Below are positions 27,379 to 43,408 of a stretch of DNA of 64,000 nt, piece after piece (the first letter of the stretch is position 1; every line of letters starts with the position of its first letter). The position numbers were made by a program. The stretch comes from Octopus vulgaris (taxonomy: Eukaryota). The DNA lies in the NCBI GenBank assembly GCA_951406725.2, contig OX597830.1, forward strand, positions 51,708,001 to 51,772,000, in the 5' to 3' direction.

Positions 27379-30300
27379 AGGTTATTGTTGACATTGCATT
27401 ATTTGATTTTCTGATATCACCATGCAGGAGAATGTTCTAACTTACCGTTCGCTTCTTAACAAAAGTATTATTAGAAATTTGTTTATTATCCATTTTTATT
27501 TCATCTCTTTCTACATCCCTTTCCTACGCCAGATATTAACGAATGTAATGAAACATTAACGAATGTAAAGCACAACTGCAGCCAAATTTGCGAGGACACA
27601 GACGGTTCTTACGCCTGTAAATGCAGACCAGGCTACCACATTGCAGACGACAGAGTCACTTGCTTATATCATGGTACGTACATTGATTTTTATTTATTTA
27701 CTTCATCTTCTTACCTTTATTAAGTATCATCTTTCCTTTCTCCTTTCTGACGTTGATAAATACCTGTTTCGTTTCACTTAACAGTAACGATCTAAACAAA
27801 GTTTGTAATATTAAATATATTTTAGAAATCATATTAGCTTCAAATTTTGGTGTAGGCCCAGCAGTTAGGGAAAAGAGGCTAAATCGGTTACATCAACCCC
27901 AGTATCGTGGTCGATTCGATTGACTAACAATTATTCAAGGCATTGCTCTAGGATGGCCGGAGTCTAGTGATTGAAACACTGGTTTTTAGTCTGAAGACAG
28001 AAAGCAATAGGGTAACAGTCTTTTTTACAAAAACTGGGTGCACGGCGTAAGGGAAGAGCACACGGTAGAATAACAGACTGACTCCTGGAGTACACCAATG
28101 CGGAATAGATTTTTAAAACACCAGTGAGTTATCTTTGTTCACTTGTCTTTGTTTCAAATTTTGGCACAGGTCCAGCAGTTTGGGAGAAGAGGGTAAGTCA
28201 GTTACATCAAACCCGGCATCATAGGATTTTCGATCGACTAACAATTTCTCAAGGCATTGCTCTAGGATGGCCGCAGTCTAATGATTGAAACAAGTAAAAG
28301 TAAAATATTAATGATAAATATGAAAAAAATGACATCTGGCCCGATTCAGCTTTATCTTTCTTTGTACCGGCTTTGATAAATTAACTACCCGTTGTGTACG
28401 GGTCGATTAAATCATCCCGGAGAATCGAGACTAGATGGGTTTAATATAGGGTTTAGTTTATGAAATTCAATCTTGCGAAACAGTACGAATTTTAATTTAA
28501 TTAGCCTATATCTAATGAACATATTTTTATCTCGTACAAAGGTGATGACATGTGCATAATCAACCAAACCGTTTGTTCCGTAAATGCCATATGTTCTAGC
28601 TTGAACAAAAATTATACTTGTACTTGTAAAGATGGATTTGAAGGAGACGGTTTCACTTGTAAAGGTAAGTACGATTACAAATCTTACGTTACTTCTGGTT
28701 TTTAGTCTGAATCCACAAGGTAGTAGGGTAAATACTTGACAAGATGGTGGGGAATATATGAAAGTTGGGAGGAAGTATGAAAAAGTCGCCTTGATAAATT
28801 CCATAAAAGTCTTGGTGACACAAGTGATGAGCAGCGAAAACATTTCGATCAGGATATAAAATCAATGGAACAAATGTATCAAAGCAGATGTGACTATCGT
28901 AAGATGGTGGATTATTGCTGGAACTTGGTTTACGATCTTCTTGAGTTTCAACACTCACGAAAATCATCCAATCGGAAATTCGTAGGAAATAAATCATAAC
29001 AATGTAATTTGACTATGCAAATCTTAAAATGTGTATAGTCAAATTACATTGTTTATATGATTGTCACATTATCACGACCACCCATTAATATAATAAGGCT
29101 TACAATACGGTGGATTGTGCCAAAGACATTCCCTATTAGTCTAGTGTGCGGTAGAAAAATATGTGTTTGTTTGTCTGATTAGCCGTGCAAATAAATTCTG
29201 ACGTTGCGAAATGTTAGAATTATAGTTTATTACAATTTGTTTGTGCATTTATTATGTTTCAGGTATAACTGAAACAGAAAAACGAAATTAATTAATCAAG
29301 AAAGAAAATATTTTTTTAAATACTTTATCTATCTGTTAGAGACAGCAGATAAATCTCCTTCAAATCATGCTGTACCGTCTAAAACGCGAGGGAGAATTTG
29401 AATAAAGTAATTCTGTATATTACTAGTTTGGGTATAGGCTTGATTAGGCATAATCTAAGACGAAACAAATATTAACAAATGAACATAACGAATGCAAATA
29501 CTAGTCTCTGTTTATATGTGGTTATTTATGCTTTTGTAATTATCTTGTAGATATCAACGAGTGCGAAAGGAAAGAATATAAAGACTGTTCAATTCACGGT
29601 GAATGCACGAATAATTTAGGAAGTTATAATTGTACGTGTAAGACAGGTTGGACGGGAGATGGATTCAACTGTACAGGTAAGTAATATATTTCTTCTCTGT
29701 CCATCACAAACATTTTCCTTACTTCCTCTCCTCTAATATATTCTCTGCATCTATCAACATATTGCTTTTACTCTCTGCCACTCTCTAACACACATCTAAC
29801 GCAGAGATTCATAGGCTAAATATAACACACATATATATATATGTCAACAAATGAAGTAGAAAATTCCCTTCGGCTCATTGACTTATCAGCAGATTTTTAT
29901 TTTAAATAGTGTCTTAGGAAAAAGTATTCTTGTTGCGTTTCCATATTTCCCACTTGAATTTGTTTAAGACATACAAAAATTAAGCCTAATTACTTTTCGA
30001 TATTTCAGTGAGCATCTAGAAATAGTATTTTACTTCGGTTTCATAAGAATTAAGACATGATTGGTCTGGATTGTCAGCTAATAGATTGTATTTAGCAAAC
30101 AGGCAAATTAAGAACCATCGGGAAAATTACATACAGGTTTTGCATCAAACAACATTTATCAATTAGAGAGAAAAACATGCTGTATTAGCTAATAAACTGA
30201 CATTAGATGGAGCAACTACCTTTTTCTGTATACAAACCTTGTATACAATTGTCATGTCCAACCTAGTTTCTTGAACAGTATACCGATTCGAAAAATTATT

Positions 30301-42300: not shown

Positions 42301-43408
42301 TCAACGAGTGCGAAAGGAAAGAATATAAAAACTGTTCAATTCACGGTGAATGCACGAATAATTTAGGAAGTTATAATTGTACGTGTAAGACAGGTTGGAC
42401 GGGAGATGGATTCAACTGTACAGGTAAGTAATATATTTCTTCTCTGTCCATCACAAACATTTTCCTTACTTCCTCTCCTCTAATATATCTCTGCATCTAT
42501 CAACATATTGCTTTTACTCTCTGCCACTCTCTAACACAGAGATTCATAGACTAAATATAACACACATATATATATATATTTCTTTACTACCCACAAGGGG
42601 CTAAACATAGAGGGGACAAACAAGGACAGACAAAGGGATCAAGTCGATTACATCGACCCCAGTGCGTAACTGGTACTTAATTTATCGACCCCGAAAGGAT
42701 GAAAGGCAAAGTCGACCTCGGCGGAATTTGAACCCAGAACACTTAACGGCAGACGAAATACGGCTACGCATTTCGCCCGACGTGCTAACGTTTCTGCCAG
42801 CTCGCCGCCTTTAATATATATATATGTCATACAAATGAAGTAGAAAATTCCCTTCGGCTCATTGACATGCTGTATTAGCTAATAAACTGACATTAGATGG
42901 AGCAACTACCTTTTTCTGTATACAAACCTTGTATACAATTCTCATGTCCAACCTAGTTTCTTGAACAGTATACCGATTCGAAAAATTATTTTACCTGAAC
43001 TAGGAGGGTTTTTTTTCTTTTTCTTCTTTTTTTGACACACACTATACGAAAATGACATCCATTTATTGCTATCAGGTCGGGATTTTAAGTTACTGAATCG
43101 ATAGTATCTCACTGAATTTTGTTTTTCAGTAAAACAGCTTATGAAGAACATAATATAACGCACAAACATATATAAAAATTGGTTTTCCTTCAAAACCAGA
43201 ATGATTTCTTAAAATTCTACTAAAGCATTAGTAAAGATCTTAAAATTTGTATAGTCAAATTACATTGTTTATGCTTTATTTAATTATTTAATTTATTCAA
43301 TCTTTCAAGGAATAATTTTATTTTAAACAATATTTTTTGTTTTTTTTTTCCCCCACAGCTCTTGCTGAGAATTTCGATGAGCGTAAGTATACTTTTCATA
43401 ATCGTTTC

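What the first reader, a model, noticed from the sequence alone, without database searches (positions are those of the whole stretch)
28233..42535. Exon-level VNTR: 13 near-identical EGF exons (A-B6-(A-B)3) lengthen the stalk of a MUC4-like membrane protein
Seen: 4 copies of a 123-nt EGF exon and 9 copies of a 126-nt cbEGF exon. All have intact AG/GT sites, all are phase 1-1, and their introns are also near-identical. Together they add 1626 nt (542 aa), about a third of the protein visible here, just outside the membrane. Known: vertebrate membrane mucins vary in length through an intra-exon PTS VNTR, MUC4 has only a few EGFs, and cbEGF chains form semi-rigid rods. Inference: this locus tunes ectodomain length by gaining or losing whole exon+intron cassettes, and may be copy-number polymorphic between individuals, possibly for barrier or recognition functions.
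Basis: partly seen in the sequence, partly recalled or inferred. Interest (0 to 1): 0.85.

Follow-up and report, generated by a model that had tools for sequence, protein, structure and literature searches.

The report
Young EGF-exon array in octopus mucin-like gene
A membrane-protein gene of an octopus carries thirteen almost identical copies of two small EGF-domain exons in a row, a very recent in-gene amplification that public gene models ignore and that could lengthen the protein's stalk if the copies are spliced in.

Summary
Window 28233-42577 is a head-to-tail array with the order A-B6-(A-B)3. It holds 4 copies of a 123-nt EGF exon and 9 copies of a 126-nt calcium-binding EGF exon. All 13 have AG/GTAAGT sites, phase 1-1 and six cysteines, 1626 nt in total. 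Units, introns included, differ by 0-0.8%.

The gene is the Octopus vulgaris 'mucin' (CAI9735355.1), a MUC4-like NIDO/VWD/C8-3/EGF/TM protein.

[quoted passage not shown] No database protein carries more than one copy.
- **Selection:** intact exons are expected by recency alone, and exons vary no less than introns.
- **Artefact risk:** unit divergence lies below the reported 1.22% heterozygosity. This fits a very young, possibly polymorphic array, but leaves an assembly artefact open.
- **Family pattern:** gastropod homologues carry 26-28 stalk EGFs. These include near-identical tandem modules, and Patella isoforms differ by whole EGF modules. Stalk length change by EGF cassettes therefore recurs in this family.

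It is a new member of a known kind (exon-cassette amplification, as in LPA KIV-2). Inclusion in mRNA and polymorphism remain untested.

The parts
28233..42577 (+). Head-to-tail array A-B6-(A-B)3. It has two nested periods: a 1131-1134-bp B unit and a 2361-bp A+B unit.
28542..28664 (+). EGF exon A1 (123 nt, phase 1-1; T/K variant)
29551..29676 (+). cbEGF exon B1 (126 nt; the only B with N->D, which loses one N-x-S sequon)
30685..30810 (+). cbEGF exon B2
31818..31943 (+). cbEGF exon B3
32951..33076 (+). cbEGF exon B4
34082..34207 (+). cbEGF exon B5
35215..35340 (+). cbEGF exon B6
36567..36689 (+). EGF exon A2 (T/K variant)
37576..37701 (+). cbEGF exon B7
38928..39050 (+). EGF exon A3 (T/K variant)
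39937..40062 (+). cbEGF exon B8
41289..41411 (+). EGF exon A4 (N/E variant). It is the only A copy that encodes the A module of both public proteins.
42298..42423 (+). cbEGF exon B9, the last copy. Its downstream intron is a rearranged version of the B-unit intron.
27533..27673 (+). Last unique cbEGF exon upstream of the array (phase 1-1, donor G|GTACGT)
43359..43382 (+). 24-nt linker exon (ALAENFDE, phase 1-1) between the array and the TM exon
45124..45271 (+). Transmembrane exon (hydrophobic run IYIIVGVIMALLVWLVIMIFCVW followed by basic residues)
7120..7353 (+). Exon with the GDPH motif, start of the VWD-type domain of the same gene (context)
11518..11751 (+). Exon encoding the Mucin-4-like C8-3 domain of the same gene (context)

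Best explanation
The window holds most of the gene whose product is deposited as 'mucin' of Octopus vulgaris (CAI9735355.1). It is a single-pass membrane protein with this layout: NIDO, an AMOP-like Cys-rich region, a VWD-type domain that starts with GDPH, a MUC4-type C8-3 domain, a run of EGF modules, a TM helix and a short tail.

Between the last unique cbEGF exon and a 24-nt linker exon, intron-to-intron unequal recombination (or replication slippage) has amplified exon-plus-intron cassettes in two nested rounds. First the 1133-bp unit with cbEGF exon B was duplicated. Then a 2361-bp segment holding A, B and the first 87 nt of a following B unit was copied. The B-only run grew to six.

Units differ by 0-0.8%, so the amplification, or its last homogenisation, is very recent. 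It is probably younger than the split from O. sinensis.

Every copy keeps the same AG/GTAAGT signals and phase 1-1. The splicing machinery therefore has no sequence basis for preferring the two annotated copies. I predict that many or all of the 11 unannotated exons are included in at least some transcripts. That would add up to 459 residues (8 cbEGF and 3 EGF modules, 29 more N-x-S/T sequons) to the stalk next to the membrane. Cassette skipping could give length isoforms.

Shown: the array, exon integrity, the nested structure, gene identity, absence from public models, and the parallel in gastropod homologues. Inferred: mechanism, timing, inclusion in mRNA, copy-number polymorphism and any function.
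For: **Array and nested periods.** The first 87 nt of A units 2-4 match the start of the B unit (98.9%), but A1 lacks them.

**The copies look like real paralogues, not base-calling noise.** Variation falls in 17 of 1134 B-unit alignment columns: 14 substitutions and 3 indel columns. The variants are shared in a nested way:
- B2 and B4 share 4 variants.
- B1 and B3 share 1.
- B2-B4 share 1.
- B6-B8 share 1.
- B7-B8 share 1.

Pairwise substitutions range from 0 to 9 per 1133 nt.

**Exon integrity.** 13 of 13 exons are intact, in phase and carry six Cys.

**Gene identity.** Window exons are identical to P0136 apart from residues at exon junctions.

**Sister species.** The O. sinensis orthologue differs at 22 of 1398 residues. 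Its single A has the N/E states found only in window copy A4, so A1-A3 carry derived states.

**Homologues.** They are colinear from NIDO through modules A and B: Patella 31% identity over 1243 aa, E 3e-141; Bulinus 29% over 1264 aa, E 2e-109.
- They carry 28 and 26 EGF modules after GDPH.
- Bulinus has 12 copies of one cbEGF, 11 of them identical. Patella has a U-V-V pattern.
- The four Patella RefSeq isoforms differ only by whole EGF modules (41, 41 and 122 aa, 0 mismatches). One of the omitted modules lies inside the near-identical run.

**Literature.** Symmetrical class 1-1 modules can be duplicated by intronic recombination without breaking the frame (PMC8001218, passages).
Against: **Public models.** The public O. 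vulgaris protein has one A and one B, and so does the RefSeq O. sinensis protein. The O. vulgaris genome paper, to which I attribute the deposited model by species and submission (not shown by any search), used Iso-Seq and RNA-seq as well as protein alignments and ab initio models on a repeat-masked assembly (PMC10700109, passages).

**Database searches.**
- With exon B as query, 1 of 23 hits (38 candidates) was 100% identical, and it has one copy.
- With the C-terminal 283 residues as query, none of the 120 listed hits other than that cluster is a close relative.

**No sign of constraint.**
- Exons vary at 4 of 249 sites against 15 of 2024 intron sites (Fisher p = 0.15).
- 3 of the 4 exon changes are non-synonymous.
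- Intactness of all 11 extra exons is expected under neutrality: P about 0.36-0.71, or 0.10-0.48 if loss of a Cys also counts.

**Artefact not excluded.** Unit divergence (at most 0.8%) lies within the 1.22% heterozygosity reported for the sequenced animal. That genome was assembled from 27.5x ONT R9.4.1 reads (PMC10700109, passages). An inflated copy number is therefore possible.
Confidence: 0.55

Rival explanations
1. The array is real DNA, but the 11 extra exons are not used. Transcripts splice from exon 27533-27673 to A4 and one B, as the public models have it. The copies would then be a neutral, very young intronic duplication with no effect on the protein.
For: - Both public proteins have one A and one B.
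- The A in the O. vulgaris model can only come from A4.
- No database protein has more copies.
- There is no constraint signal, and intactness is expected by recency.
Against: - The skipped copies have the same acceptor, donor and flanking intron as the used ones, so selective skipping has no visible basis.
- The annotation ran ab initio predictors on a repeat-masked assembly and used protein alignments. Both favour a one-copy model whatever the transcripts look like.
- Homologues in Patella and Bulinus are modelled with near-identical tandem EGF modules included.
Confidence: 0.25
2. The copy number is inflated by the assembly. Allelic or misjoined long-read copies of a shorter array were laid in tandem, and the true locus has fewer units.
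For: - Unit differences (0-0.8%) lie within the reported heterozygosity of 1.22%.
- The assembly used 27.5x ONT R9.4.1 reads.
- B2 = B4 and B7 = B8 have 0 substitutions between them.
Against: - The window has no gap.
- Differences are mostly substitutions shared in a nested pattern, not homopolymer indels.
- Two distinct periods with a defined 87-nt junction need at least two real duplication events.
- A and B-only sub-arrays cannot arise from laying two alleles of a single A-B pair side by side.
Confidence: 0.15
3. The copies form a cluster of mutually exclusive alternative exons, of the Dscam type, that diversifies the protein.
For: The exons are tandem, of equal length and equal phase.
Against: - 8 of 9 B copies encode the same peptide, as do 3 of 4 A copies, so a choice among them gives almost no diversity.
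- No selector or docking element was looked for.
Confidence: 0.03

Closest known systems
LPA kringle IV type 2 coding VNTR (human)
   Same: Both are head-to-tail units of several kb that hold whole exons plus introns. [quoted passage not shown]
   Different: - Here each exon is one EGF module rather than a kringle split over two exons (the two-exon structure is recalled).
- Two unit types are nested.
- Neither inclusion in mRNA nor variation among individuals is shown.
Homologous stalk EGF runs in gastropod NIDO/GDPH/EGF proteins (Patella vulgata XP_055957123-126, Bulinus truncatus KAH9523872.1)
   Same: - They belong to the same protein family and are colinear with the octopus protein through modules A and B.
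- They contain near-identical tandem EGF modules in the stalk.
- Patella isoforms differ by whole modules.
   Different: - Only protein models were seen, not their DNA, so intron identity and age are unknown.
- Their repeated modules lie further towards the C-terminus and are not the A/B modules.
- They have SEA-type C-terminal parts (SEA in 4 of 15 family members), whereas the octopus protein goes from B to the TM helix.
Vertebrate MUC4
   Same: - NIDO, VWD with a GDPH site, C8-3_MUC4, EGF modules and a TM helix are shared.
- MUC4 is cleaved at GDPH (PMC8660890, abstract start in the listing).
- Coral 'mucin4-like' proteins with NIDO, AMOP, VWD and EGF are described (PMC4890752, passages).
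   Different: - The public octopus protein has no long PTS repeat domain, only a Thr-rich stretch of about 45 residues near the N-terminus (read).
- AMOP is not confirmed by Pfam (16.6 bits against a cut-off of 25).
- It has many more EGF modules than the three I recall for human MUC4.
Exon shuffling and duplication of class 1-1 modules
   Same: The EGF exons are flanked by phase-1 introns and duplicated by recombination in introns, the textbook route (PMC8001218, passages).
   Different: Most domain repeats are ancient and stable, and recent unit gain is rare in human proteins (PMC3995336, abstract and passages). Here the copies are younger than the species' own allelic diversity.
CD97/ADGRE5 and EMR2 EGF-number isoforms
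   Same: B is most similar to their cbEGF modules among solved structures. From recall, these receptors vary their number of EGF modules by alternative splicing.
   Different: Those modules are diverged and fixed in number in the genome. The isoform statement is recalled and comes from no call.

Membership tests
Calcium-binding EGF (Pfam EGF_CA) - exon B | Score above the Pfam gathering cut-off | tested here: met
   38.2 bits against a cut-off of 27
Calcium-binding EGF (Pfam EGF_CA) - exon B | Six Cys, plus an N-terminal D-x-N-E-C and a C-x-N-x4-Y-x-C motif (consensus recalled) | tested here: met
   Peptide DINEC...CTNNLGSYNC with 6 Cys in 9 of 9 copies. The closest solved chains are cbEGFs of ADGRE5, uromodulin, Notch1 and fibrillin.
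Calcium-binding EGF (Pfam EGF_CA) - exon B | Binds calcium and forms a rigid rod with its neighbour | not testable with these tools
   A fold of joined modules was left out. The C6-x-D-I-N-E-C1 spacing between successive copies follows from the phase-1 junctions.
EGF, not calcium-binding - exon A | EGF model above cut-off, EGF_CA model below cut-off | tested here: met
   EGF_3 45.1 bits (cut-off 28.5); EGF_CA 18.5 bits (cut-off 27). 6 Cys in 4 of 4 copies. Closest solved chains are NELL2/NELL1 EGFs.
MUC4-like NIDO-AMOP-VWD membrane protein | NIDO domain | tested here: met
   63.7 bits (cut-off 25) in P0136 and 67 bits in P0014. The window holds only its last exon (16 bits). NIDO is found in 14 of 15 family members.
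MUC4-like NIDO-AMOP-VWD membrane protein | AMOP domain | tested here: inconclusive
   Exon 3147-3374 scores 16.6 bits, E 0.0088, on profile positions 4-34, below the cut-off of 25. AMOP is not among the 22 families listed for the 15 homologues at E <= 0.001. No solved relative was found. The Cys pattern is conserved in alignment A1.
MUC4-like NIDO-AMOP-VWD membrane protein | VWD domain with GDPH site | tested here: inconclusive
   Two exons match the two ends of the profile but fall below the cut-off of 22.9: 20.9 bits at positions 3-50 and 18.1 bits at positions 134-155. VWD is found in 1 of 15 whole homologues. On the other side, all 21 solved sequences matched by the GDPH exon are FCGBP, MUC5AC, VWF, MUC5B or MUC2, the best at E 5.8e-11.
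MUC4-like NIDO-AMOP-VWD membrane protein | Mucin-4-type C8-3 domain after the VWD | tested here: met
   Exon 11518-11751 scores 40 bits against a cut-off of 25.
MUC4-like NIDO-AMOP-VWD membrane protein | Long Pro/Thr/Ser repeat (true mucin domain) | tested here: not met
   The public protein P0136 shows only a short Thr-rich stretch near the N-terminus (read). That part lies upstream of the window.
Exon-cassette coding VNTR (LPA KIV-2 type) | Tandem near-identical units that each hold whole exon(s) plus intron, in frame | tested here: met
Exon-cassette coding VNTR (LPA KIV-2 type) | All units are present in the mRNA and protein | not testable with these tools
   No transcript data were on hand. 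Public models carry one A and one B.
Exon-cassette coding VNTR (LPA KIV-2 type) | Unit number differs among individuals | not testable with these tools
   Only one genome sequence was seen. Unit divergence below the reported heterozygosity is suggestive only.
Mutually exclusive exon cluster | Alternative copies encode different peptides | tested here: not met
   8 of 9 B peptides and 3 of 4 A peptides are identical.

The most novel reading that the evidence does not exclude
This would be an invertebrate counterpart of the LPA KIV-2 locus: a still-expanding, copy-number-polymorphic array of EGF exon cassettes. The array would be fully spliced into the mRNA. The height and glycan load of a MUC4-like surface protein would then differ between individuals, and between the sister species O. 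vulgaris and O. sinensis. The same process would run independently in other molluscs (Patella, Bulinus). That would make stalk length of this family a fast-evolving trait, possibly under selection at an epithelial or recognition surface.
Probability: 0.3. Interest if true: 0.55.

Novelty: new member of a known kind. Interest (0 to 1): 0.38.

Why it matters
- **Catching the process early.** If the copies are spliced in, the locus shows domain-repeat growth at a stage that is rarely seen. The exons and their introns are still over 99% identical, whereas most protein domain repeats are ancient and fixed (PMC3995336).
- **A simple test system.** It would allow a direct test of how the spliceosome treats a run of identical exon-intron cassettes. 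It would also test whether the stalk length of a MUC4-like surface protein varies within a species.
- **A practical gap in annotation.** 11 in-frame EGF exons lie inside what public models treat as one 13.6-kb intron. Repeat masking and protein-guided annotation can therefore hide young coding arrays.

Tried and rejected
- **RNA genes:** Rfam at gathering scores gave 0 hits in the window and there are 0 tRNAs. No known RNA gene explains the units.
- **Hairpin matches:** at E <= 1, only far sub-threshold microRNA-family matches fell on a hairpin in the A-unit intron.
- **Orthologues by cytoplasmic exon:** the search found only the O. sinensis/O. vulgaris cluster (1 hit of 12 candidates). A/B counts in other cephalopods therefore could not be compared.
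- **C-terminal region search:** it was swamped by EGF proteins.
- **ESM Atlas on residues 262-760:** the best score was 0.76, for 'mucin-4' clusters. That is a lead only.
- **Pfam on whole proteins:** it missed VWD and AMOP.
- **Paper searches:**
  - 'exon shuffling' + 'phase 1-1' + EGF: 0 papers.
  - 'tandem exon duplication' + EGF: 3 papers, none relevant.
  - EGF-like + VNTR terms: 7 papers, none on such a locus.
  - octopus + mucin + EGF + 'tandem duplication': 1 unrelated paper.
- **Mutually exclusive splicing:** rejected because the peptides are identical.
- **Joined models:** No structure or complex prediction was run.
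Full report
**1. Observation**

The window has no N. Tandem Repeats Finder missed the array because its longest period is 500. The repeat finder found nine in-register copies at 99-100% identity, spaced 1134, 1133, 1133, 1131, 1133, 2361, 2361 and 2361 nt.

blastn of one A+B unit (35037-37397) against the window gave these matches:
- the first A unit, 28233-29372 (99.9%);
- six B units starting at 29373, 30507, 31640, 32773, 33904 and 35037;
- further 2361-nt A+B units at 37398 (99.9%) and 39759 (99.7%);
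- a truncated last B unit, 42120-42577 (97.4%), followed by rearranged pieces of the B intron up to 42993.

All 13 exons have acceptor AG, donor GTAAGT, a last base G (phase 1-1) and six Cys. There are four of 123 nt and nine of 126 nt, in the order ABBBBBBABABAB, 1626 nt in total. Pfam calls A an EGF_3 domain (45.1 bits, cut-off 28.5). It calls B a calcium-binding EGF (38.2 bits, cut-off 27). Only the end coordinate is slightly short.

**2. Anatomy of the array**

The first 87 nt of A units 2-4 are a copy of the start of the B unit (98.9%), while A1 lacks them. The 2361-nt unit therefore consists of A, one B and the first 87 nt of a following B. This means B had already been duplicated when the A+B segment was copied.

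Eight full B units and the first 415 nt of B9 vary in 17 of 1134 alignment columns. Fourteen are substitutions and three are indel columns (a TC loss and one T gain). The variants are shared in a nested way:
- B2 with B4 at four columns;
- B1 with B3 at one;
- B2-B4 at one;
- B6-B8 at one;
- B7-B8 at one.

Pairwise substitutions run from 0 (B2/B4, B7/B8) to 9 per 1133 nt. The four A units vary at 5 of 1140 shared columns. This pattern fits real paralogous copies shaped by unequal exchange better than base-calling noise.

**3. The gene**

A search with exon B alone for longer proteins gave 23 hits among 38 candidates. Only one was 100% identical: XP_029647084.1, 'mucin-like protein' of Octopus sinensis, 1413 aa. 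Its 90% cluster has one other member: CAI9735355.1, 'mucin' of Octopus vulgaris, 1448 aa.

tblastn of the O. vulgaris protein against the window matches every exon. The only mismatches are at exon junctions. All nine B copies are hit, eight at 100%. The O. sinensis protein differs at 22 of 1398 residues. The window starts at about residue 210 of the protein. The gene runs on the + strand from 1183 to beyond 50 kb.

Domain tests gave the following:
- **NIDO:** 63.7-67 bits.
- **C8-3_MUC4:** 40 bits on exon 11518-11751.
- **VWD:** two exons match the two ends of the profile just below the cut-off (20.9 and 18.1 bits against 22.9). The GDPH exon matches only FCGBP, MUC5AC, VWF, MUC5B and MUC2 among solved structures (21 of 21 hits, best E 5.8e-11).
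- **AMOP:** unconfirmed (16.6 bits against 25; no solved relative).

After B9 come a 24-nt phase 1-1 linker exon (43359-43382) and the TM exon (45124-45271). The public protein has no long PTS domain (read). 'MUC4-like' is a fair description. 'Mucin' in the strict sense is not shown.

**4. What the public models say**

Both public proteins contain exactly one A and one B. Their A has the states N and E, which only window copy A4 encodes. A1-A3 have T and K. The O. vulgaris model must therefore jump from exon 27533-27673 to A4, leaving 11 intact EGF exons in a 13.6-kb 'intron'.

No protein with more than one copy turned up.

This counts against inclusion, but not strongly. According to the genome paper, the annotation combined several sources. 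These were Iso-Seq and RNA-seq assemblies, protein alignments, and ab initio predictions made on a repeat-masked assembly (PMC10700109, passages). Masking and protein guidance both favour a one-copy model. I could not see the evidence behind this particular model, and the paper's supplements were closed.

**5. Age and selection**

Units differ by at most 0.8%. This is below the 1.22% heterozygosity reported for the sequenced animal. O. vulgaris and O. sinensis are said to have split 2.5 My ago (PMC10700109, passages).

The amplification, or its last homogenisation, is therefore very young. With N/E shared by A4 and O. sinensis, the T/K states of A1-A3 are derived.

There is no sign of constraint:
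- Exons vary at 4 of 249 sites and introns at 15 of 2024 (p = 0.15).
- A4-specific changes are 2 of 123 exon sites against 2 of 1017 intron sites (p = 0.06).
- Three of the four exon changes are non-synonymous.

At the observed divergence, all 11 extra exons would stay intact by chance with P about 0.36-0.71. If loss of a Cys also counts as damage, P is 0.10-0.48.

**6. Relatives**

Among the stored homologues, gastropod proteins are colinear with the octopus protein from NIDO through modules A and B:
- Patella vulgata: 31% identity over 1243 aa, E 3e-141.
- Bulinus truncatus: 29% over 1264 aa, E 2e-109.

They then continue with many more EGFs, 28 and 26 modules after GDPH. Bulinus has 12 copies of one 37-aa cbEGF, 11 of them identical in the Cys-to-Cys span. 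Patella has a near-identical U-V-V pattern.

Of the five other mollusc homologues scanned, four have at least one pair of modules at 90% identity or more, and two have large runs. The four Patella RefSeq isoforms (2473, 2432, 2432 and 2351 aa) differ only by whole EGF modules, with no mismatch. One omitted module lies inside the near-identical run.

So stalk length in this family changes by EGF cassettes in evolution. In annotated isoforms it also changes by cassette skipping. These are protein models; I did not see their DNA.

**7. Explanation and rivals**

- **Best reading (0.55):** a real, very recent, nested amplification of class 1-1 EGF cassettes by recombination in introns. The copies are indistinguishable to the spliceosome and are probably included at least in part. 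That would add up to 459 residues and 29 N-x-S/T sequons next to the membrane.
- **Rival 1 (0.25):** the copies are real but silent.
- **Rival 2 (0.15):** the copy number is inflated by the assembly. The two periods and the 87-nt junction still need at least two real duplications.
- **Rival 3 (0.03):** mutually exclusive exons. Rejected, since 8 of 9 B peptides and 3 of 4 A peptides are identical.

**8. Comparison with what is known**

The nearest known system is the LPA KIV-2 coding VNTR. It has 5.6-kb units, 1-40 per allele, and covers up to 70% of the coding sequence (abstracts of PMC11462820 and PMC11201333).

The mechanism is the textbook duplication of symmetrical class 1-1 modules (PMC8001218, passages). 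Recent unit gain is rare among human domain repeats (PMC3995336, abstract and passages), so an array this young is uncommon but not new in kind.

My four searches for a description of such an EGF locus found none.

Verdict: a new member of a known kind, of moderate interest.

**9. Left out or unchecked**

- I did not build, search or fold a joined spliced model of the window. Window searches were exon by exon, and the public proteins stood in for the whole.
- A fold of joined cbEGF modules, which would bear on the 'rigid rod' idea, was therefore not made.
- Orthologous DNA, reads and transcripts could not be examined with the collections on hand.

Noticed in passing
window 36995-37100; copies at 28998-29053, 37023-37078, 39384-39439, 41745-41800; a part at 43237-43281: Each A-unit intron holds a near-perfect hairpin with a stem of about 28 bp (-32.5 kcal/mol, z -7.3). 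Its matches to microRNA families are far below threshold (28.5 bits against a gathering score of 86). A related piece lies downstream of the array. It could be a small inverted-repeat element or a hairpin RNA.
   Followed up: partly
window 50094-50138 and 53270-53374: The two public models disagree on the 3' end. The O. sinensis protein ends in an exon at 50094-50138. The O. vulgaris protein ends in an exon at 53270-53374, directly after a (TA)n tract of about 1 kb.
   Followed up: no
window 52001-54000: A very long TA microsatellite lowers G+C to 0.18 over 2 kb. It reads as YIYI... in all frames.
   Followed up: no
window 3934-4581 (+), 51264-51980 (+), 8027-8830 (-): Long open frames (216, 239 and 268 aa) lie inside introns of the gene. 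From reading them they look like pieces of retroelement proteins. This was not tested against any library.
   Followed up: no
window 58001-64000: G+C rises to 0.42-0.43, with open frames of 100-200 aa on both strands. This may be another element or gene downstream of the mucin-like gene.
   Followed up: no
window 28542-28664, 36567-36689, 38928-39050 versus 41289-41411: A1-A3 differ from A4 and from the O. sinensis protein by two non-synonymous changes (N->T, E->K). The first creates an extra N-Q-T glycosylation sequon. A4-specific changes fall at 2 of 123 exon sites against 2 of 1017 intron sites, p = 0.06.
   Followed up: partly
window 42578-42993: Downstream of B9 the B-unit intron is rearranged. 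About 237 nt of foreign sequence is inserted, unit positions 510-801 are missing, and homology ends at unit position 930.
   Followed up: partly
stored proteins P0137, P0139, P0114, P0138 (Patella vulgata): The RefSeq isoforms of the homologue differ only by whole EGF modules (41, 41 and 122 aa) with no other mismatch. This suggests cassette-exon skipping in the stalk of this family.
   Followed up: yes
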